From: an uncultured Candidatus Binatia bacterium
GTDB taxonomy: Bacteria; Desulfobacterota; Binatia; UBA9968; CAXXLF01
NCBI GenBank assembly: GCA_965218425.1
Contig: OZ244621.1
Location: 2,656,001-2,720,000, forward strand
Length of the DNA stretch: 64,000 nt
Direction: 5' to 3'
Shown here: piece by piece, positions 1,867 through 34,879 of the stretch
How the letters are laid out: each line of letters opens with the position of its first letter
Position numbering within the stretch: the first letter of the stretch is position 1
Translations under genes and position numbers: made by a program
Notes under the pieces: model-generated
Told to the model about the DNA's origin: nothing
Seen by the model: only the letters and a program-made list of their open reading frames with translations
Databases searched by the model: none

Positions 1867-2823
1867 TTAGCTTTTGGACAGCTCGAGGAGAAGTCTCCTC
1901 CAGGATTCAGACTCGCCCTTGGGATCCACCAGGGGGGATAGACGGGTGCAGTGGTCTTTCAGTTGGCGGTAAAAGTATGGTTCATTTTCAGCTTTTTGCA
2001 GGAGGCGGGTCAGGGCACGAGTATCGCCAACCGGGAAGTATCCTGGGTAGTTCTCGCCAAGTGTCCCCATTAGGCCGGTAATTTTTGAAGCCAACACCGG
2101 TATCGATGAAGCAAGGGCCTCGGACAGGACATTGGAACTTCCTTCAATCTTGGAACTGAGTGACATCAGGTGACTGTGGGCCAATACTTGGCGTGTCTTC
2201 CAATGGGGCAGCTCTCCTACCCAGTGATAGCGAGGGTTGCGCTCAACTTCCTTCCGCGCCCGCTCTCCCATCTCATTGCTCAGTGCGCGTCCTACATGGG
2301 TGATCCGTACACGAGACGATACAGGAAGCTGGCGGGCGGCCATGGCCGTGCGAAAGGGGTCCTTCTCGGGGCGCAGGTGTCCAACCACACAGACTTTGAA
2401 GACCTTACTTGCATTGGAGGCCTTCCCATTGACTTTAGGGGCTGACTGATAAATCGCCCGGGTCTTGCTGTGAAGGCGCCGTGGGAGTTCCTCCATGGCC
2501 TTCCTTTGCAGAACGATGAGATGCGTGGCAAGTTCGAGGGATTCCTGGGCACGGGAGTCCTTGCGGATATCCCGGTAAAGATCGGTGCCCGTGAGTACTA
2601 CAATGAGTGGAAGATTGGGAAACTTTTCGCGATAATGGCAGATGGACTCATAACTGCGCAGGGCGTGCAGGGCAATTAGCAGGTCGCATGATCGGCCGTT
2701 ATAGTTTCGTTCGACACTAACACGGTGACCCAGCCGCTTTAAGATCCCTGCCCATCGAAGGGCTGTAATCTGGTTGCCGTTTCGGGCATGGGGTGGCGCC
2801 GGCGTAATGAGCTTGATTCTCAC
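1867..2823 (-). CDS. senB: Selenosugar synthase SenB-like glycosyltransferase (TIGR04348-type, GT-B)
   Basis: Family motifs ITPAP...GNQITALRW, LIALHA, VVLTGTDLYRD, LIVLQ, GHLRPEKDP, SKIEGSSNV, LGENYPGYFPVGD; GTG start with GAGG RBS. Confidence 0.85.
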   Translation of the reverse strand: MRIKLITPAPPHARNGNQITALRWAGILKRLGHRVSVERNYNGRSCDLLIALHALRSYESICHYREKFPNLPLIVVLTGTDLYRDIRKDSRAQESLELATHLIVLQRKAMEELPRRLHSKTRAIYQSAPKVNGKASNASKVFKVCVVGHLRPEKDPFRTAMAARQLPVSSRVRITHVGRALSNEMGERARKEVERNPRYHWVGELPHWKTRQVLAHSHLMSLSSKIEGSSNVLSEALASSIPVLASKITGLMGTLGENYPGYFPVGDTRALTRLLQKAENEPYFYRQLKDHCTRLSPLVDPKGESESWRRLLLELSKS

Positions 2824-2957
2824 ACTGGACCTCTGCTCTATGCAATTACGCGATCAGGCGCTCGGTTGGGGCTGGATACGGTCAATTGGTAAAACTCAAT
2901 GTTGCCCATCTGGCTCTTCCCGAAGGTTCAATTTTTGCGAATGTACGACACTTGCCC

Positions 2958-4166
2958 TCAAGTATCAAGTTCAAGATTGATTTTCATCATCTCCAACCAT
3001 GGGTGAAATTCTTCAAACCAAGGTTCCCGTTGATTTTCCAAGAGAAATCGATAGGCCCCTCCAAGGTCGGCTCGTTTTTTTTGCGTAAGGGCCAGGGGTT
3101 TTTCCTTGTCCTTTGAACCGTTGACCTGCTCACAAAATCTGCGAATAACCCGCCAGTGAGGTAATGCCGTTGAACCGAGTCGCTCCGTAACCGCAACTTC
3201 CCAACTCGATTCGGGATCATATCGGACCGGGTTGGAGGCATAGTCGAAACAGGTGGCAAGGGGAATGAAGCTAAGATTTTCCTGCAATAAAGGGTTATTC
3301 AGATAACCATATACCAGTTCCGGCAACCGGGGGTCTCGGCTTTTTAGGGGACCCAAATGCATTTCCATGCTCATGGTGAGGTCGTTCACGGGATAGTTGT
3401 CCCAAAGAATGAGGCGGCGGTGGAGGGCTTTCTTTACTTTTCTCGCATGGGCCAAGGTGATGGACTTTGAGACCACCGCCGGGCCAGTCCAGAAGCAGCA
3501 TACCGATTCGGGCAGATGCTCATCCAGGGTCTCAAGGAATGAGGGCTCAAAGGCCCCAAAGGTTCGAGCAAGAAAGGGATCTTCCGTGTAGTAGGAAGGG
3601 CAGATCCACCATTCCACTTCGTTCCAGAACTTCGATTGTCGGTTCAATATTGTTTTTAGCCACAGACCTTCGGCCTTTGCCAAGCTCCCGTCGAATAGTT
3701 TTTTGTCTTGGGGAAATTCCAACTGGGAGGGGATATCATCGAACAGGACAGCGAAGGTCCGTACACCGGCCTCGTACAGGCCCTTGGCTTTGGCAAGCAG
3801 CCAGTCCACGGGTTCGGCTGCGCCAAAGTGGAGTCCCTTTCCTGGATGAAACCCGTAGACGAAATCCACATCATGCTTGGTGGCTTCACCAATGAGTTGT
3901 AACAAATCCTGCCATTGCTGCTCTGGGTAGGGTTTTTCCCAGTGTTCCCTGTGATAGGGGTCATCTTTTGGGGCGTACAGGTAGGTATTCATTCTCCTTC
4001 TCTGTCCGAACTCGAAAATCGCGGCCCGATGGGACATACTCCAGGGGGGACCGAAAAATCCCTCAACAATGCCACGACGCTGAAAAGTCTGATCCGCAGG
4101 CATAGGATGAGTCAAAAGATATTTTGATTGTTTGTCAAGCATGGGGCCCCGTTGACCCATGGTCAA
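2958..4166 (-). CDS. GH84 beta-N-acetylglucosaminidase (O-GlcNAcase-like), cytoplasmic; true start may be ATG 4103
   Basis: GIVEGFFGPPWS, YLYAPKDDPYHR, FAVLFDDI (catalytic Asp-Asp), WTG, LWDNYPVND; no signal peptide. Confidence 0.9.
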   Translation of the reverse strand: MTMGQRGPMLDKQSKYLLTHPMPADQTFQRRGIVEGFFGPPWSMSHRAAIFEFGQRRRMNTYLYAPKDDPYHREHWEKPYPEQQWQDLLQLIGEATKHDVDFVYGFHPGKGLHFGAAEPVDWLLAKAKGLYEAGVRTFAVLFDDIPSQLEFPQDKKLFDGSLAKAEGLWLKTILNRQSKFWNEVEWWICPSYYTEDPFLARTFGAFEPSFLETLDEHLPESVCCFWTGPAVVSKSITLAHARKVKKALHRRLILWDNYPVNDLTMSMEMHLGPLKSRDPRLPELVYGYLNNPLLQENLSFIPLATCFDYASNPVRYDPESSWEVAVTERLGSTALPHWRVIRRFCEQVNGSKDKEKPLALTQKKRADLGGAYRFLLENQREPWFEEFHPWLEMMKINLELDT

Positions 4167-4243
4167 ATTTGGGGTTTGGTTAGTTCGGGTCGTTTTTTCT
4201 GACGGTGAAAATATTGTTTTTGCATGGGAGCGCTGCGAAATAT

Positions 4244-5059
4244 ATGGATACGCCTAAAGCAATCTTTAAAAGCCCAAAATTCCTCCAGGCCATTGCTGTT
4301 ATATTCGTAAGCTATGCCGTGGTCTATGCTCAAGGGCCTAGCACGGCCATGATCACCATTCCCGCGGGGCCGTTTATAATGGGAAGCGATAGAGGTCCTG
4401 AGGACGAAAGGCCCGCGCACGCTGTAGAGCTCCCGAGTTTTGCCATTGACCGCACTCCGGTGACCAACGCTCGGTTTGCCGTGTTTTTGGACGTGGCGGG
4501 TCCGGAGAGTCCCGAGGGAAGACGCTTCTATGATGTTGACGATAATGACGCGCGCATCCACCGGATGGATGGAAGGTGGCAAGCCGATGATGGTTTTGCA
4601 GATCATCCGGTGATGGAAGTTTCCTGGTTCGGTGCAACAAGCTACTGCGGTTGGGCAGGTAAGCGCCTGCCCACGGAAGCGGAATGGGAGAAGGCAGCCA
4701 GGGGAACCGATGGTCGCAGGTTCCCTTGGGGAAACATCCCTCCAGATTCCAGCAGGGCTCAGTTCGATGCGGGATGGAATGAATCCGCTCCTGTGGATGG
4801 TTTTCCAGCTGGGGCGAGTCCCTACGGAGTTTTGGATCTTTCAGGGAATGCCTGGGAGTGGGTTAGCAGCGCCTATCTTCCCTATCCTTATAACCCGTCA
4901 GATGGCCGCGAAGATTTACGGGCGGGTCCAGTTCGTGGCACACGAGGGGGAGGCCACGATTCGCCGGCTGAGGAGTTGACCACAACCCATCGGGGTGAGA
5001 ACCTTTCGCGTAACTATCGAGGGGGACACCATAACATTGGGTTTCGTTGTGCAAGGTAG
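4244..5059 (+). CDS. FGE-sulfatase (SUMF1/EgtB/PvdO) domain protein, probably exported
   Basis: FIMGS, PVTNARF, HPVMEVSW, RLPTEAEWEKAARG, DLSGNAWEW, IGFRCA; N-terminal hydrophobic segment ending VYA; no DinB domain. Confidence 0.85.
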   Translation: MDTPKAIFKSPKFLQAIAVIFVSYAVVYAQGPSTAMITIPAGPFIMGSDRGPEDERPAHAVELPSFAIDRTPVTNARFAVFLDVAGPESPEGRRFYDVDDNDARIHRMDGRWQADDGFADHPVMEVSWFGATSYCGWAGKRLPTEAEWEKAARGTDGRRFPWGNIPPDSSRAQFDAGWNESAPVDGFPAGASPYGVLDLSGNAWEWVSSAYLPYPYNPSDGREDLRAGPVRGTRGGGHDSPAEELTTTHRGENLSRNYRGGHHNIGFRCAR

Positions 5060-5122: not shown

Positions 5123-6442
5123 ATGATAAAATTTTCAATGGTGCGCATAATACTACCAATGATTGAGCATCGAAGCATAACCCGGGTGCTAAATTACCAG
5201 TGGACCGTGGGCCTATTTTGCTTGCCGCTGGTCATTCTCTCAGCGATTCGCATACCAGCACAGCCATTTCCAACTCCCGTGGAGGTTGCCCCTGTGGTGA
5301 CCCAAACGGTGGAGGAAGAGGTCTCCTTCATCGCAACCCTCGAGCCCAATATTACCACCACGGCGGGTGCTGTGGTTTCAGGACGAGTTATCAGAGCTGA
5401 GGTGCGGGAGGGGGATCGAGTGGAGAGGGGAAAAACCCTCCTCATGCAAATCGACCGTACCTCCAGAGAGATCGCGCTCAGGGAAGCGGAGGCGTCAGTG
5501 ACCAAGAATCGTGAAAAATGGCAGCGCTTGCGACGTGGCTATCGCCTGGAAGAAGTGGCACAGCGACGGGCCGAATCGGAGGAGCAAAAAGCCATCCTTT
5601 CTCGCACGGAGCAGGACTTCAAAAGGGGGGAGCGCCTTTACCGCGACGAGCTTGTTAGCCTCGCTGAACTTGAGCGTCTTCAAAGCGAGTACCTTGCAGC
5701 CAAGGAGAAGCATGGACGAACCCTGGCGGCCCTTCGGATGGCTGAAGCCGGCCCGAGGCGTGAAGAGATCGCGGAAGCAGAGGCCGAACTCAGGGAGGCT
5801 CAAGCCAGATACGACCTGATCGCCTATGAGCTCGACCGTACGACTCTACGTGCCCCACTCACAGGTTTTCTGGTTAGAAAATATGTAGAGGTGGGCACCT
5901 GGGTAAGCACGGGTGATCCCATTGCCGACCTGGTGGACTTGAATCCCGTTTATGCCAGCGGGCCGGTGGGAGAGCGCAAGATTAGCCTTCTCCAAAAGGG
6001 CCTTACTGCAACAGTGGCGGTGGATGCCCTTGCGGGACAGAGCTTTGAAGGAATGGTGACCCAGATCGTTCCCCGTGCGGATCCACGAAGCCGAACCTTT
6101 CCTGTGAAGGTCCGCATTTCCAATGAGAATGGACGGTTGAAGAGCGGCATGCTGGCACGAGTTACGGTGAAAGTGGGCAATGGACGTTCCGGCCTGCTGG
6201 TACCAAAAGATGCCCTAGTTCGTAGAGGGGTGGATGAAGTTGTATTTGTGGTGGAAGACGGGGTGGCGAGACAGGTAAAAGTGAAAACGGGGCGCGCCGT
6301 TCAACAATTGATGGAGATACACGACAGCGATCTTAAACCCGACCAGGAAGTGGTGGTCATCGGCAATGAATCACTTACCGGCGGGGCTAAGATTCGAAAG
6401 ATAGACCGAAAAGAACCAGGTCGAGCACCAAGGACTCAATGA
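5123..6442 (+). CDS. RND efflux periplasmic adaptor (membrane fusion protein); start uncertain
   Basis: Lipoyl-like VREGDRV and LRAPLTG segments, long coiled coil, SRTFPVKV, LKSGM; overlaps the permease start (ATGA). Confidence 0.9.
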   Translation: MIKFSMVRIILPMIEHRSITRVLNYQWTVGLFCLPLVILSAIRIPAQPFPTPVEVAPVVTQTVEEEVSFIATLEPNITTTAGAVVSGRVIRAEVREGDRVERGKTLLMQIDRTSREIALREAEASVTKNREKWQRLRRGYRLEEVAQRRAESEEQKAILSRTEQDFKRGERLYRDELVSLAELERLQSEYLAAKEKHGRTLAALRMAEAGPRREEIAEAEAELREAQARYDLIAYELDRTTLRAPLTGFLVRKYVEVGTWVSTGDPIADLVDLNPVYASGPVGERKISLLQKGLTATVAVDALAGQSFEGMVTQIVPRADPRSRTFPVKVRISNENGRLKSGMLARVTVKVGNGRSGLLVPKDALVRRGVDEVVFVVEDGVARQVKVKTGRAVQQLMEIHDSDLKPDQEVVVIGNESLTGGAKIRKIDRKEPGRAPRTQ

Positions 6443-9400
6443 AGCTCATCGATTTCTGCATTCGCTACCCCGTGACGGTGATGGTTGGGGTCTTGCTGTG
6501 TCTCCTTTTCGGAGTCATAGGGCTATCACGCCTGCCTGTTCAGCTAATTCCTGCGGTGGATCGTCCTGAGATCACAGTTGAGACAGAGTATCGCGGGGCC
6601 GCACCCCTGGAGGTGGAACGAGAGATCACCGATCGCATGGAGGAGAAGCTCAACGCCGTTGAGGGTCTCAAGGAGATGTCCTCCGTTTCCATCGAGGGCA
6701 AGTCCACTGTGATCCTGAAATTTGATTGGGGGACCAACAAGGACATTGCCCGGCTGGGGGTCTCCGAAAAACTTGACCTGGTTACAGAATTGCCTCCAGA
6801 TGCAGAGGAATCGCAGGTCCGCGCGGTCAACACCGATGAAGAAAGTCCCATCGCCTGGATTATTGTCGAAACCACTCGTGACCTCAACGAGGTGTGGGAG
6901 GAAGTGAAAGACATTATCGTCCCACGGATTGAGCGGGTCAGCGGTGTGGGTGCGGTTTGGCGATTTGGAGGGCAGGATCGCGAGGTCCATGTGACCCTGG
7001 ACCCCCGGGCAATGGCTGCAAGGGAGGTCACCATCGGTGAGGTACGCCAGGCGATCCTGAGGGAGAACAGGAATATTAAGGGTGGTGATCTGAGTGAAGG
7101 GAAGAGCCGCCATATGGTTCGCACCCTGGGTCAGTTCACTGATATCTCCCAGATCGGCGGTGTCATCGTGCGTCAAGACCGGAACCGGCCGGTCTATATC
7201 CGGGATATCGCCACTGTGACCTTTGGCAATGAGGACCGGGATTTCGCAGTGCGCATCAACGGCCGGCCGGCCATCGGCATGGGAGTACTTCGCCGCTCAG
7301 GGGCCAACACCGTGGAGGTCATGAAGGGGCTCAAAGCAGAGCTCAACTATCTTGCTGAAGGTATATATAAGGGCAAAGGGATTCATCTTCGCATGGTGTA
7401 TGACGAGACGGAGTATATCAACGACTCTCTGGATCTCGTAATCAACAACATCTATTACGCTGCCCTTCTGGCGGTTGTGGTTCTCCTCCTATTCCTCCGC
7501 AGTTTCTCGAGCATCCTCGTCATTTCTGTGGCAATACCGGTTTCCGTAGTCACCACATTCGTATTTCTGAGCGGTCTCGACCGTACGCTTAACATCATCA
7601 CCCTTGCCGGCTTGGCGTTTGCCACGGGCATGGTGGTGGACAACGCCGTCGTGGTATTGGAGAACATCTTCCGCCATCGTGAAATGGGCAAGGACCGATT
7701 CCAGGCGGCCTTTGACGGTGCAAAGGAAGTCTGGGGGGCCGTGTTGGCCTCCACGTTGACCACAGTGGCGGTCTTCGTCCCCGTCCTGTTCGTGCGCCAG
7801 GAGGCCGGTCAGCTTTTCCGTGATATTGCCATTGCCGTCTCCGTTGCCGTGGCGCTGTCGTTGGTAGCCGCCCTCACCGTGGTCCCCATGCTCTGCGCAC
7901 GGGTCCTCTCGGCGCGCGCGCGTTTTCCCATAGCACCGATCCAGCGCATGTTTGATCTGTTGGACCGGGTAGGCGGAGTTTTCAGTGCTGGCATTGTGGG
8001 TCTCCTTGCCTGGCTCCATCATAGCTTTTTACGACGCGTGACAGTGATCTGGGTCATCGTCCTCGGATCTCTCACCGTGGCCTACCTGTTCGCGCCGCCC
8101 CTGGACTACCTGCCGAAGGGGAATCGCAATCTGATCTTTGTCGTGGTGAACACGCCCCCTGGCTTCAGCGTGGGACAAAAAGAAGAGATTATTACGACTT
8201 TGGAATCGCGCTTTCTCGGCATACCAGAGGTTGCCCGGCTCTTTGCAGTGGTGCGGATCGAGGACCCCATCATGGGGGCCATCGTCAAGCGGGAGGATGC
8301 CGACCTGAAGGGGATGCGTCGTGTTGTCGATGAAATGCGGCGCCGTGCCCAGGGAATCCCTGGCACCCAGGGCGTCTTCATTACCCAGTCTTCACTATTT
8401 AGGCAGCGCAGGGCGTTCTTTGGTGGTACCAACATAGATCTGGATGTGCGTGGAGATGAACTGGGGGTCATCCGAAACATTGCCGAAAGGCTACGTGAGC
8501 AAGTCGCAGGCGTCCGGGCGGTGAACTTTGTCAGCTCGACCTTCGAATGGGGAAATCCAGAGATTCAAGTGGTGGTGGACCGTGAACGGGTGGCTGCCCT
8601 TGGGCTCGGTGTCACCGAAATTGGTGAAGTGGTTGAGACCATGGTGGAGGGGACGTTGGCAGGGGATTATCGTGAAGGGGGTAAGGAGATCGACATCGTT
8701 CTCAAAGGGCCGGACCTCGAGCTAACCCGGACCCAAGACCTGGGTCAAGTGGTTTTATCGGACCGCTCGGGACGGTTAGTTCAACTTTCAGACATCGCAG
8801 CCATCAAACCGGGAACCGGACCCACAAAGGTCGATCATGTGGACATGGACCGAGCCATTAAGCTTACGGTCAATATAAGTGAGGGTATTCCACTGGAGCG
8901 AGCGGTAGGCCTCATCGAAGGGGCCGCGGTGGGCCGGGCACGGCAGGCGCTTCCCCTGGGCTATTCCATCGACGTCAGCGGTCAGGCCCGCAGCCTCGCT
9001 GAAGCTTGGAATTCCCTAAGGTGGTCCTTTCTCTTGGCCATCATCGTTATCTACCTTCTCATGTGTTCGCTCTTTGAGTCCTGGAGCCTACCCTTCATTA
9101 TTATGTTCAGTGTACCCCTGGCCATGACCGGCGGTATTGTTGCGGTGAGCCTCGCCCATGCCACCGAGCCGAGCATCAAGATGGACACAGTGACAATGCT
9201 GGGGTTCATCATCCTGGCTGGCATCGTGGTCAACAATGCCATTCTGATCGTGCACCAGACCCTGAATTTCATGGGAGAGGGTGCCCCTAGGCAGGAGGCT
9301 TTACTGAAAAGCGTAAGGAGCCGGATCCGACCCATCTTCATGACTAGCACAACGACGATATTTGCCATGCTACCCTTGGTGGTTTCCCGGGGAGCAGGTT

Positions 9401-9597
9401 CGGAGCTCTACCGGGGTTTGGGCTCGGCGGTGCTGGGAGGGTTGGCCTTCTCCACGCTGTTCACCCTGATCCTGATCCCGACCCTTTACTCCTTGTGGCT
9501 TGACATTCGGTTTCCCGCACGACAAAAGGTTCCTCAAACGGTTCCTGAACAGGAAGGCAAGTCCGCCGTGGCCCCAGGGGTCGCAGGAGGAGAATAG
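6439..9597 (+). CDS. RND efflux permease, AcrB/AcrD/AcrF family
   Basis: 1052 aa; GMVVDNAVVVLENI, GIVVNNAILI, RIRPIFMT. Confidence 0.95.
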   Translation: MKLIDFCIRYPVTVMVGVLLCLLFGVIGLSRLPVQLIPAVDRPEITVETEYRGAAPLEVEREITDRMEEKLNAVEGLKEMSSVSIEGKSTVILKFDWGTNKDIARLGVSEKLDLVTELPPDAEESQVRAVNTDEESPIAWIIVETTRDLNEVWEEVKDIIVPRIERVSGVGAVWRFGGQDREVHVTLDPRAMAAREVTIGEVRQAILRENRNIKGGDLSEGKSRHMVRTLGQFTDISQIGGVIVRQDRNRPVYIRDIATVTFGNEDRDFAVRINGRPAIGMGVLRRSGANTVEVMKGLKAELNYLAEGIYKGKGIHLRMVYDETEYINDSLDLVINNIYYAALLAVVVLLLFLRSFSSILVISVAIPVSVVTTFVFLSGLDRTLNIITLAGLAFATGMVVDNAVVVLENIFRHREMGKDRFQAAFDGAKEVWGAVLASTLTTVAVFVPVLFVRQEAGQLFRDIAIAVSVAVALSLVAALTVVPMLCARVLSARARFPIAPIQRMFDLLDRVGGVFSAGIVGLLAWLHHSFLRRVTVIWVIVLGSLTVAYLFAPPLDYLPKGNRNLIFVVVNTPPGFSVGQKEEIITTLESRFLGIPEVARLFAVVRIEDPIMGAIVKREDADLKGMRRVVDEMRRRAQGIPGTQGVFITQSSLFRQRRAFFGGTNIDLDVRGDELGVIRNIAERLREQVAGVRAVNFVSSTFEWGNPEIQVVVDRERVAALGLGVTEIGEVVETMVEGTLAGDYREGGKEIDIVLKGPDLELTRTQDLGQVVLSDRSGRLVQLSDIAAIKPGTGPTKVDHVDMDRAIKLTVNISEGIPLERAVGLIEGAAVGRARQALPLGYSIDVSGQARSLAEAWNSLRWSFLLAIIVIYLLMCSLFESWSLPFIIMFSVPLAMTGGIVAVSLAHATEPSIKMDTVTMLGFIILAGIVVNNAILIVHQTLNFMGEGAPRQEALLKSVRSRIRPIFMTSTTTIFAMLPLVVSRGAGSELYRGLGSAVLGGLAFSTLFTLILIPTLYSLWLDIRFPARQKVPQTVPEQEGKSAVAPGVAGGE

Positions 9598-10866: not shown

Positions 10867-11256
10867 TCACCTGCCTCGAAAGCGGGTGAGAGCCCGGCGA
10901 TCCTTTTTGGATGGGCGACCTTTTATGTGGGGAGATTTCCACTCGTGAGCCCTTATTTCGGAGGCGGCCTCCTTACGATGGAGCTTGCTTTCTTGCGTTT
11001 CCTCGTACAGCAGTATGGCCACGCTTGCGGGTCCCCGTTTTGCGGAAACAGCTCGTACCACCACGGTCCATTCATAGGAGCCCCTCCGAATGGTGAGTTG
11101 GTCGCCGCTGTTAATCTCCCTGGCAGGTTTCGTGCGTGCGCCGTTCAGGTGCACCTTGCCTCCTGAAACCGCTTCGATGGCCAAGGATCGTGTCTTGAAA
11201 AAGCGCGCCGCCCAGAGCCACTTGTCGAGTCTTACTTTCTCCCCGTTTTCTTGCAT
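10867..11256 (-). CDS. hslR: Ribosome-associated heat shock protein Hsp15 (S4 domain)
   Basis: VRLDKWLWAARFFKTRSLA, RGPASVA..LYEET, GRPSKKDRR. Confidence 0.92.
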   Translation of the reverse strand: MQENGEKVRLDKWLWAARFFKTRSLAIEAVSGGKVHLNGARTKPAREINSGDQLTIRRGSYEWTVVVRAVSAKRGPASVAILLYEETQESKLHRKEAASEIRAHEWKSPHIKGRPSKKDRRALTRFRGR

Positions 11257-11311
11257 GGTGATTGATTCACGATACCAGAATTTGTCGGAGCCTTAAATAT
11301 AAAGTGCTTTA

Positions 11312-12401
11312 TTGAGAACCGCATAATATAGTAACATTGGATAAGAACTTAATGTATAGTGGTGGTATGGGAAACCCACTTGGAGTGCGACGGGACTTTG
11401 AAGCATTGGAGCGACGGCGGATGGAGGCGGGGAGGCTGTTGAAGCGAGGGCTGTCGGAGGCGGAGGTGGCGCGTTGGGTGGGAGTGCACCGCCAGTCGGT
11501 GAATCGATGGGCGCGGCAGTTGGCCGAGAGCGGCAGAGCCGGGCTCAAGCAGGCGGGGCGTGCCGGACGCAAGCCGCGACTGAGCCCGGCGGATCTGAAG
11601 AAGATCGAGGGCGGTTTGAAACGGGGACCCGAAGCGCTGGGGTACGACACGAGCCTGTGGACCGCAAGGCGAGTGGCCCACTTGATTGGGGAAGCCTGCG
11701 GAGTCACATACCATCCGGGCCATGTTTGGCGGATATTGCGGCAGTTGGGGTGGAGTTGCCAGCGGCCGACGGGACGTGCCTTGGAACGAGATGAAGAGGC
11801 GATCCGGCAGTGGAAGAAGAAGCGCTGGCCGGAGATTAAAAAAAAGCCCGAAACGAGGGGCGAACCATAGTGTTCGTGGACGAAAGCGGGCTGAGCGAGC
11901 GGCCGAATCGGTATCGTACGTGGTCGCCCCGAGGACAGACGCCAGTGCTGCAATATCACTTCAACTGGAAGAGTCTGTCGGCCATCGCCGGAGTCACCTG
12001 GTGGCGCTTGTACTTTCGAGTGTATCCGGGAGCCATCAAGAGCCCCCAGATCATCGAATTCCTGAAGCACTTGATGCGTCATGTTTCCGGGCCGCTGCTG
12101 GTAGTGTGGGACGGACTGCCCAGCCACCGGAGCCGGTTGGTTCGGGACTTTGTTGCCGCTACCGAAGGCGCGTTGGTGCTGGAACGGTTGCCGGCCTATG
12201 CACCGGAACTGAATCCCGTCGAATACCTCTGGGGATACTGGAAGCATCATGAACTGCCCAACTTCTGTGCCAAGGACTTCGCTCAACTCAGCCACCATGC
12301 TCGTCGCGCCCTTTGCCGAATGCGCCGCAGGCCTCGTCTCGTTACCGCCTTCTGGAAACAGTCCAGCCTTTTCTGATGTCATTATATTATACGAGGATCA
12401 A
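11312..12401 (+). mobile_element. IS630-family insertion sequence, copy 1 (1090 bp)
   Basis: TA on both sides (11310-11311, 12402-12403); imperfect 26 bp TIRs TTGAGAACCGCATAATATAGTAACAT / TTGATCCTCGTATAATATAATGACAT; near-identical copy at 33784. Confidence 0.93.
11367..12376 (+). CDS. IS630 transposase in two ORFs (HTH + DDE) joined by a probable -1 frameshift at A8G 11838-11846
   Basis: ORF A has HTH/winged-helix motifs; ORF B has FVDESG, VWDGLPSH, LPAYAPELNPVE; the -1 frame reads KKARNEGRTIVFVDESG. Confidence 0.9.
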
Positions 12402-12521
12402 TAATAGACCATTTACAGCTCCGACTCACGCGGACAATGTTTGTACATTCTCAATTCCTGTTGCTTTTGGCTTCGGTGACTTTCTTCGCTCCACGGGACT
12501 CCCGCACCCCGAACCGCAATT

Positions 12522-33585: not shown

Positions 33586-33783
33586 CCCCACGTTGTTAGG
33601 CGCAGGGGGTCTGGCACGAAGAAAGGGAGACGTCCGGTACTGGCGGCTCATGCCAATTTGGCATGTCAGATCAAATGATGGGGCCTCGTGGCCGAGACCC
33701 ATCGGCTCCCGCTGAGAGGCAGGCCCCCAAGCCCAGAAATTCGCGATTTTGTAAATGGCGCGCTGAGCGAGCTTGCAAACCTA

Positions 33784-34873
33784 TGGAGAGCCGCATAATA
33801 TAATGACATTGGATAAGAACTTAATGTATAGTGGTGGTATGGGAAACCCACTTGGAGTGCGACGGGACTTTGAAGCATTGGAGCGGCGGTGGATGGAGGC
33901 GGGGAGGCTGTTGAAGCGAGGGCTGTCGGAGGCGGAGGTGGCGCGTTGGGTGGGAGTGCACCGCCAGTCGGTGAATCGATGGGCGCGGCAGTTGGCCGAG
34001 AGCGGCAGAGCCGGGCTCAAGCAGGCGGGGCGTGCCGGACGCAAGCCGCGACTGAGCCCGGCGGATCTGAAGAAGATCGAGGGCGGTTTGAAACGGGGAC
34101 CCGAAGCGCTGGGGTACGACACGAGCCTGTGGACCGCAAGGCGAGTGGCCCACTTGATTGGGGAAGCCTGCGGAGTCACATACCATCCGGGCCATGTTTG
34201 GCGGATATTGCGGCAGTTGGGGTGGAGTTGCCAGCGGCCGACGGGACGTGCCTTGGAACGAGATGAAGAGGCGATCCGGCAGTGGAAGAAGAAGCGCTGG
34301 CCGGAGATTAAAAAAAAGCCCGAAACGAGGGGCGAACCATAGTGTTCGTGGACGAAAGCGGGCTGAGCGAGCGGCCGAATCGGTATCGTACGTGGTCGCC
34401 CCGAGGACAGACGCCAGTGCTGCAATATCACTTCAACTGGAAGAGTCTGTCGGCCATCGCCGGAGTCACCTGGTGGCGCTTGTACTTTCGAGTGTATCCG
34501 GGAGCCATCAAGAGCCCCCAGATCATCGAATTCCTGAAGCACTTGATGCGTCATGTTTCCGGGCCGCTGCTGGTAGTGTGGGACGGACTGCCCAGCCACC
34601 GGAGCCGGTTGGTTCGGGACTTTGTTGCCGCTACCGAAGGCGCGTTGGTGCTGGAACGGTTGCCGGCCTATGCACCGGAACTGAATCCCGTCGAATACCT
34701 CTGGGGATACTGGAAGCATCATGAACTGCCCAACTTCTGTGCCAAGGACTTCGCTCAACTCAGCCACCATGCTCGTCGGGCCCTTTGCCGAATGCGCCGC
34801 AGGCCTCGTCTCGTTACCGCCTTCTGGAAACAGTCCAGCCTTTTCTGATGTCATTATATTATACGAGGATCAA
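33784..34873 (+). mobile_element. IS630-family insertion sequence, copy 2 (1090 bp)
   Basis: TA flanks 33782-33783 and 34874-34875; reconstructed empty site AACC-TA-GGTT; near-identical to copy 1. Confidence 0.93.
33839..34848 (+). CDS. IS630 transposase, frameshifted at A8G 34310-34318
   Basis: Same two-ORF structure as copy 1; one R-to-W difference near the N-terminus. Confidence 0.9.
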
Positions 34874-34879
34874 TAGGTT

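What the first reader, a model, noticed from the sequence alone, without database searches (positions are those of the whole stretch)
1867..5059. SenB-type selenosugar synthase paired with a cytoplasmic GH84 O-GlcNAcase instead of senA/senC
Seen: a GH84 gene with an intact Asp-Asp catalytic pair and no signal peptide lies 134 bp upstream of, and co-oriented with, a SenB-like glycosyltransferase. A divergent gene encodes a lone FGE-sulfatase domain, the fold of the SenA/EgtB C-terminal half, but without the DinB iron-binding domain. No senA or selD/senC is in the window. Known: SenB makes 1-seleno-beta-sugars, including Se-GlcNAc, from UDP-sugar and selenophosphate in selenoneine synthesis; GH84 enzymes cleave beta-GlcNAc, and O-GlcNAcase can cleave activated thioglycosides. 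Inference: a make-and-break module for Se-GlcNAc (selenium storage/release, or unmasking a selenol on an unknown selenometabolite or protein), distinct from selenoneine synthesis.
Basis: partly seen in the sequence, partly recalled or inferred. Interest (0 to 1): 0.8.

Follow-up and report, generated by a model that had tools for sequence, protein, structure and literature searches.

The report
Selenoneine pathway's extra GlcNAc hydrolase
The selenium-sugar synthase gene here is part of an ordinary selenoneine (selenium antioxidant) pathway whose other genes lie elsewhere in the genome, but a special sugar-cutting enzyme stays beside it across most of this bacterial order and may perform an undescribed, untested sugar-removal step.

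Summary
The three genes are as described: SenB (403 bits, cut-off 300), a signal-less GH84 with intact Asp-Asp 134 bp upstream, and a divergent FGE-domain gene. 'Instead of senA/senC' is wrong. The genome has a full senA (483 bits, cut-off 420; all 12 checked SenA residues) 1.4 Mb away, plus selD and egtD.

The GH84 link is real. In 41 genomes of this order (Ca. Binatia by relatives' titles), 33 have GH84-senA-senB and 3 (this family) GH84-senB with senA elsewhere; 5 are fragmented or lack genes. The GH84 forms its own subfamily; its SAR324 sister group occurs in 10 genomes, all with a senB hit, unlinked. It is dispensable: 2 of 251 Burkholderiales carry any GH84, 93 carry senB.

Best reading (0.42, inferred): an accessory hydrolase that frees selenoneine from the reduced GlcNAc-selenoneine shunt product. 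Rivals are SeGlcNAc turnover, 2-acetamidoglucal salvage, NagZ substitute and passenger. No activity was tested. I found no paper on this link, but this scan noted it six times before on other DNA.

The parts
1867..2823 (-). senB, selenosugar synthase (318 aa)
   Evidence: TIGR04348 403 bits against cut-off 300; PDB SenB hits E 2e-61; N17, T20, H53, R56, T78, T80, R151, K154, E227 match V. paradoxus N20, T23, H58, R61, T83, T85, R155, K158, E231; V157 is E153 here
2824..2957 (.). 134-bp gap at the place where senA sits in 33 of 41 genomes of the order
   Evidence: no senA remnant by tblastn; a sigma70-like site at 2968-2940(-) is within chance (4 found, 2.8 +/- 1.8 expected)
2958..4166 (-). GH84 beta-N-acetylglucosaminidase of a sen-associated subfamily; likely true start at 4103
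   Evidence: PF07555 276 bits; closest structure 5DIY, Foldseek TMq 0.82, model pLDDT 92; subfamily of 80 rows at 51% identity or more against 90 rows at 41% or less
3735..3740 (-). catalytic Asp143-Asp144 pair
   Evidence: sequence; kept in 79 of 80 subfamily rows, the other row a gap; role of hOGA D174/D175 from PMC10636738 passages
4104..4243 (.). region between the likely starts of the divergent GH84 and FGE-domain genes
   Evidence: start positions; no promoter-like site listed here
4205..5059 (+). FGE-sulfatase-fold protein, probably exported, not a split SenA; likely start at 4244; function open
   Evidence: PF03781 183 bits; SenA model only 107 bits against cut-off 420; two Cys only; ortholog divergent and within 0.5 kb of GH84 in 7 of 22 loci

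Best explanation
The locus is the remains of the order-wide cluster GH84-senA-senB. In this family senA became separated but is intact, so the cell makes selenoneine by the known route: SelD gives selenophosphate, SenB makes SeGlcNAc, EgtD makes hercynine, SenA joins them as a selenoxide that eliminates spontaneously. The gene content is shown; the chemistry is transferred from V. paradoxus. The GH84 is an accessory fourth member (linkage shown). Its most likely job (inferred) is to hydrolyse hercynyl-Se-GlcNAc selenoether, the dead-end product formed when thiols reduce the selenoxide before it eliminates. Substrate-assisted catalysis by Asp143/Asp144 with the imidazole-2-selone as a good leaving group would release selenoneine plus GlcNAc. 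It would play the part EgtE plays for ergothioneine, but as an optional rescue step.
For: senA 483 bits at C1:4060247-4061539, with N48, E53, H56, H90, R93, H138, H142, Y394, Y397, N426, F427, F428 matching the SenA residues, including the hercynine-type Y/N/F set rather than the OvsA set. selD 378 bits in a selA-selB-tRNA-Sec region. egtD in 38 of 41 genomes including this one. GH84-senA-senB in 33 of 41 genomes, GH84-senB in 3; all 38 GH84-positive genomes have a senB hit, 2 of them fragments. egtD lies within about 4 kb on the other side of GH84 in 5 of 22 loci. None of 62 genome loci and 28 metagenome loci with GH84s of 41% identity or less shows a senB or full-length senA hit; flanks vary. 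The ten GlcNAc-site and catalytic positions checked are invariant apart from gaps. SAR324 sister group: 10 of 10 genomes have a senB hit, against 16 of 88 in the phylum. The selenoether was seen in vitro and ascribed to reduction by DTT (bioRxiv 10.1101/2022.04.13.486033). OGA cleavage of thioglycosides: title of Macauley 2005 seen in reference lists only.
Against: No activity data. The pathway was reconstituted without a hydrolase, and 93 of 251 Burkholderiales have senB while only 2 of 251 have any GH84. The 6 senB-positive genomes of other orders in the class sample lack this subfamily. The selenoether is reported only in vitro with excess DTT. Alkyl S-GlcNAc resists OGA (PMC8451060 passages). 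When the cluster splits, GH84 stayed with senB, not senA, in this family and in metagenome loci L184/L185, which fits a SenB product better; in G044 (unpublished genome) it stayed with egtD and the FGE gene instead. Outside the order it is mostly unlinked (G041, G042, G043; SAR324). The loop insertion at 196-207 also occurs in short GH84s mostly found without senB. The genomes are kin, so most linkage counts reflect one origin.
Confidence: 0.42

Rival explanations
1. The GH84 turns over SenB's own product (SeGlcNAc, its diselenide or a mixed selenenyl sulfide) to release selenium and GlcNAc when the selenosugar is in surplus.
For: GH84 stays beside senB without senA in G000, G001, G002 (one event) and in L184/L185, where a divergent senB (373 bits; outside the Binatia clade) sits with ArsR-rhodanese, desaturase, rhodanese and SemiSWEET genes and no senA in 17 kb. 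SeGlcNAc accumulates in an ovsA mutant (PMC11030361). The genome has Sec machinery.
Against: It would be an ATP-costly futile cycle in one operon. Free SeGlcNAc has no aglycone to explain the subfamily-specific residues F38, H107, S191 (their role is unknown). Whether the L184 organism has senA elsewhere could not be checked.
Confidence: 0.2
2. The GH84 hydrates 2-acetamidoglucal, the sugar by-product of selenoxide elimination, to GlcNAc for salvage.
For: 2-acetamidoglucal is the detected by-product of the OvsA reaction (PMC11030361 text and supplement passage). The acid/base D144 is kept. Glycal hydration by hexosaminidases is recalled, not found.
Against: No paper found for GH84. It gives no reason for the enzyme to stay with senB after senA left. 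Salvage enzymes other than AnmK were not searched.
Confidence: 0.13
3. The GH84 is a passenger: it landed next to sen genes in the ancestor of the order and stayed by conserved gene order, with an unrelated GlcNAc substrate.
For: One origin explains the order-wide linkage. It is unlinked in G041, G042, G043 and in SAR324. With senB in 37% of Burkholderiales, 3 of 3 co-occurrence is weak.
Against: Other neighbours turn over (AmpG-like 14, desaturase 9, LysE 9, FGE 7 of 22 loci) while senB is in 21 and senA in 20 of 22. It stayed with senB through a rearrangement, is linked to a second senB lineage in L184, and its SAR324 sister group occurs only with senB (10 of 10).
Confidence: 0.12
4. The GH84 replaces NagZ in peptidoglycan recycling, cleaving GlcNAc-anhydroMurNAc imported by the neighbouring AmpG-like permease.
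For: No GH3 found in this genome or in families f1 (0 of 4) and f3 (0 of 18). AnmK is present here. An AmpG-like MFS (250-263 bits, below cut-off 350) lies near in 14 of 22 loci.
Against: Family f2, where the permease is adjacent, has GH3 in 17 of 18 genomes and keeps the GH84 too; G041, G042 and G043 also have GH3. The permease is convergent to senB, not co-oriented, and is not adjacent here.
Confidence: 0.08
5. One reading: a senA-independent module that makes a new selenometabolite or Se-GlcNAc-modified protein, with the FGE protein as partner.
For: senA is absent from the window. The FGE ortholog is adjacent in 7 of 22 loci. G003 has senA but no senB or GH84 hit (500 contigs).
Against: An intact senA and egtD are in the genome; senA sits inside the cluster in 33 of 41 genomes; the FGE protein is probably exported and is also present where senA is in the cluster.
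Confidence: 0.05

Closest known systems
sen cluster senA-senB-senC of Variovorax paradoxus (Kayrouz and Seyedsayamdost, bioRxiv 10.1101/2022.04.13.486033; main text read, parts 1-2 of 4)
   Same: SenB, SenA, SelD and EgtD are all encoded, with the key residues kept.
   Different: The genes are dispersed in this genome; selD sits with selA/selB and has an in-frame TGA; a GH84 leads the cluster in this order; SenB has E at V157 and EGSSNV for EGGAHV.
ovs cluster for ovoselenol, Halomonas utahensis OvsA (PMC11030361; parts 1-2 of 7 read, supplement searched)
   Same: Uses SeGlcNAc; OvsA is the best whole-sequence PDB hit of this genome's SenA (337 and 328 bits).
   Different: This enzyme has the SenA-type Y397/N426/F427 set, not OvsA's M/Q/A, and egtD is present.
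GH84 O-GlcNAcases: Thermobaculum terrenum OGA (5DIY), C. perfringens NagJ, BtGH84, human OGA
   Same: Fold (TMq 0.82 to 5DIY), Asp-Asp pair and GlcNAc-site residues.
   Different: About 380 aa with a short helical C-terminal part, no signal peptide; GFFG and GFHPG motifs, S191 and a loop insertion; sen-cluster context; 33% identity to 5DIY.
EgtE/EgtC steps of ergothioneine synthesis
   Same: Proposed functional analogy only: removal of the sulfur/selenium carrier after oxidative coupling.
   Different: Unrelated fold and chemistry (glycoside hydrolysis against PLP lyase), and not required for selenoneine.

Membership tests
SenB (TIGR04348) | HMM score over curated cut-off | tested here: met
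   403.2 against 300
SenB (TIGR04348) | N20/T23/E231, K158 and selenophosphate-pocket residues | tested here: met
   N17, T20, E227, K154, H53, R56, T78, T80, R151; V157 is E and the EGGAHV motif reads EGSSNV, as in 38 of 50 SenB rows
SenB (TIGR04348) | selenosugar formation from UDP-sugar and selenophosphate | not testable with these tools
   needs an assay
selenoneine pathway | senA with His triad, catalytic Tyr, hercynine and selenosugar residues in the genome | tested here: met
   483 against 420 bits, 12 of 12 residues
selenoneine pathway | selD/senC and a hercynine source (egtD) in the genome | tested here: met
   selD 378 bits; PF10017 298 bits at C1:2962603-2963502
canonical senABC cluster | senA, senB and senC adjacent | tested here: not met
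   senA 1.40 Mb and selD 1.35 Mb from senB; no SelD hit in the loci of the order examined
ovoselenol pathway (OvsA) | M401/Q430/A431 histidine-binding set and usual lack of egtD | tested here: not met
   Y397/N426/F427, egtD present; OvsM not searched
GH84 | PF07555, barrel fold, Asp-Asp pair, GlcNAc-site residues | tested here: met
GH84 | beta-N-acetylglucosaminidase activity; activity on Se-glycosides | not testable with these tools
   needs an assay
SenA/EgtB (for the FGE-domain gene 4205-5059) | DinB domain with His triad plus hercynine motif | tested here: not met
   107 against 420 bits, no DinB hit, no YRNFF motif, hydrophobic N-terminus

The most novel reading that the evidence does not exclude
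This GH84 subfamily is a dedicated natural selenoglycosidase: it breaks the C-Se glycosidic bond of GlcNAc-selenoneine or of SeGlcNAc itself, giving Binatia, some Betaproteobacteria and SAR324 an enzymatic release or recycling step in selenoneine metabolism, where the final step is now thought to be spontaneous.
Probability: 0.4. Interest if true: 0.8.

Novelty: new variant of a known kind. Interest (0 to 1): 0.52.

Why it matters
The selenoneine pathway is described as three enzymes with a spontaneous last step. A conserved fourth gene points to an in vivo problem the test-tube pathway hides: trapping of selenium as a reduced selenoether, surplus selenosugar, or sugar loss as 2-acetamidoglucal. 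One purified protein and three substrates decide between these. A true selenoglycosidase could also raise yields in engineered selenoneine production. The locus itself is not a new pathway, and it shows that a missing senA in one window says little.

Tried and rejected
Split-SenA idea: a DinB-only EgtB-type fragment exists at C1:1801049-1801741 (148 bits, profile 21-139), but it is EgtB-like, 0.86 Mb away, and a full senA exists; rejected.
OvsA identity of the distant enzyme: rejected on motif.
IS-driven recent move of senA: an IS copy abuts senA here, but G001 has senA among the same neighbours and the four f1 SenAs group together, so the separation is older.
Loop insertion as a sen-specific marker: rejected, since short GH84s share it and 1 of 5 such SAR324 genomes has senB.
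Fisher test for SAR324: not used, because the genomes are kin.
Promoter/terminator scan: within chance.
Expression: no RNA holder listed, which is no evidence either way.
Atlas search of the FGE protein gave only FGE-sulfatase clusters.
Literature: searches listed no paper joining selenoneine or SenB with a GH84; GH84 is not in the table of genes co-encoded with NHISS enzymes (PMC13674229 section 7 and supplement search). The library lacks most subscription papers, and the supplement of the 2022 bioRxiv preprint, whose Figure S1 shows cluster contexts, was not seen.
No complex prediction was run, because no binding is claimed.
Full report
Observation. The ORFs are as reported: 1867-2823(-), 2958-4166(-) and 4205-5059(+), with 134 bp between the first two. 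The first scores 403 bits on TIGR04348 (cut-off 300) and keeps the residues shown to matter in V. paradoxus SenB (passages of PMC10891094; alignment; positions), with E in place of V157. The second is a GH84 (PF07555 276 bits). Its closest structure is T. terrenum OGA, it has D143-D144 and no hydrophobic N-terminus. The third has only the FGE-sulfatase domain, two cysteines and a hydrophobic N-terminal segment. The window holds no senA or selD.

The rest of the pathway is in the genome. G000 is one contig, 97% complete. It has selD (378 bits, one in-frame TGA at the usual Sec position) beside selA- and selB-like ORFs (named from their sequence, not scanned) and tRNA-Sec, egtD, and a full-length enzyme at C1:4060211-4061545 scoring 483 on SenA (cut-off 420) and 348 on EgtB (cut-off 360). 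Its best PDB hit by whole sequence is OvsA, so I checked motifs. It has the His triad, catalytic Tyr, N63/E68/R120 equivalents, His and Phe at the positions that separate SenA from EgtB, and the Y/N/F set that separates SenA from OvsA. It is a SenA.

The GH84 linkage is conserved, and includes senA. From the coordinates, 33 of 41 genomes of the order have GH84-senA-senB on one strand and 3 (G000, G001, G002, all family f1) have GH84-senB with senA elsewhere. The other 5 are G009, G016 and G023 (genes at contig ends or on short contigs) and G003 and G004 (no senB or GH84 hit; 500-640 contigs). Record titles of the nearest relatives say Candidatus Binatia. The four f1 SenAs form one group among the order's SenAs (FastTree, 67 rows covering at least 380 residues), so the simplest reading is one separation in the family ancestor. 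In 22 longer loci senB is present in 21 and senA in 20, against AmpG-like 14, desaturase 9, LysE 9, FGE ortholog 7 and egtD 5 (22 of the 41 genomes, some loci cut by contig ends). An OpuA/OpuB-type transporter with similarity to the ergothioneine binder EgtUC lies next to egtD in some.

The enzyme is a distinct subfamily. Among 170 distinct GH84 rows covering at least 280 residues, 80 are 51% or more identical to the window's protein and 90 are 41% or less; the 80 fall on one side of a branch with support 99 (the group was defined by identity, and the tool warned of long branches). The ten catalytic and GlcNAc-site positions checked are invariant apart from gaps. Subfamily-specific residues include F38, H107, S191 and an insertion at 196-207; that these lie near the aglycone site is inferred from alignment and recalled OGA structures, not measured. 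None of the 62 genome loci or 28 metagenome loci with the distant GH84s shows senB or a full senA, whereas 24 of 52 metagenome loci of the subfamily do, most of the rest being short contigs.

Outside the order. Three betaproteobacterial genomes carry subfamily members nested among the Binatia sequences. All three have senA and senB, on other contigs or far away. This is weak, because 93 of 251 Burkholderiales have senB over cut-off (two of these genomes are unpublished), and only 2 of 251 have any GH84, one being the centre of the search. Metagenome loci L184/L185 join a subfamily GH84 to a senB from outside the Binatia clade, with ArsR-rhodanese, desaturase, rhodanese and SemiSWEET genes and no senA in 17 kb; an earlier scan note gave me this lead. 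A sister group in SAR324 shares the His and the insertion. It occurs in 10 of 88 genomes of that phylum, all with a senB hit (8 over cut-off, 2 partial), against 16 of 88 overall; it is unlinked, and 6 senB genomes lack it. These genomes are probably close kin. In the class sample, the 6 senB genomes outside the order lack the subfamily. So the subfamily has not been seen without senB, but senB usually does without it.

Mechanism. Shown: gene content, linkage, intact catalytic site. From papers: SenA's selenoxide either eliminates, or is reduced to hercynyl-Se-GlcNAc selenoether, seen in vitro with DTT; elimination releases 2-acetamidoglucal, shown for OvsA; alkyl S-GlcNAc resists OGA; OGA can cleave some thioglycosides (title only). 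Inferred: the selenoether is the best substrate because it is a beta-GlcNAc glycoside with a heteroaryl selone leaving group and would otherwise trap selenium, hercynine and sugar (0.42). Turnover of SeGlcNAc (0.2) gains from the enzyme staying with senB twice. One split went the other way, with GH84 beside egtD, in G044, an unpublished genome. Glycal hydration (0.13) rests on recalled chemistry that one search did not find. A NagZ substitute (0.08) is possible here, since no GH3 was found and AnmK was, but family f2 keeps both GH3 (17 of 18) and this GH84. A passenger (0.12) cannot be excluded, as the order-wide linkage has one origin. A senA-independent pathway gets 0.05.

Novelty. Searches listed no paper on this linkage, and GH84 is absent from the table of genes co-encoded with NHISS enzymes (PMC13674229, section 7 read and supplement searched). 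Subscription papers and the 2022 preprint's supplement were not seen. The scan's own notes reached a similar reading six times on other genomes; I had stated my reading before opening them and do not count them as support. What this locus adds is the senA-separated arrangement, the SAR324 co-occurrence and the NagZ test. Verdict: a known pathway with an undescribed, testable accessory gene; interest 0.52.

Noticed in passing
L293 (G440), L294 (G434), L295 (G429): senB, at the codon aligned with R172 of the window's SenB: Three of ten SAR324 senB loci fetched have an in-frame TGA at the same conserved Arg position, with the frame conserved on both sides despite sequence divergence and a similar 6-7 bp hairpin starting 4-5 nt into the folded stretch. 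Possible readthrough (Sec or recoding) that would make SenB synthesis selenium-dependent; the hairpin may just follow from the protein sequence.
   Followed up: partly
G000:C1:1801049-1801741 (L007): N-terminal fragment of an EgtB-type enzyme without its C-terminal half; no complete egtB over cut-off was found in the genome.
   Followed up: partly
window 11251-12450: Insertion sequence (IS630-like by recall, not scanned) with 20 near-identical copies listed in the genome, one at 33783-34875 of the window and one directly upstream of senA.
   Followed up: partly
L295 (G429:C84:18946-21661): Two tandem SenA-family genes (491 and 439 bits) upstream of senB.
   Followed up: no
L063, L065, L071, L072, L251: egtD, a fatty-acid-desaturase-like gene, LysE and often the exported FGE-fold gene recur on the far side of GH84, in some with an OpuA/OpuB-type transporter; may be a larger thio/seleno-imidazole island with unknown tailoring or transport steps.
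   Followed up: partly
L247 (G003:C211): G003 (95% complete, 500 contigs) has senA and egtD but no senB or GH84 hit: joint loss or an assembly gap.
   Followed up: no
G000 whole genome; families f1 and f3: No GH3/NagZ found in 23 genomes of these two families, although G000 and G002 have AnmK.
   Followed up: partly
window 5123-9597: RND adaptor and permease downstream of the FGE gene; an RND adaptor gene also lies near the cluster in family f3 loci.
   Followed up: no
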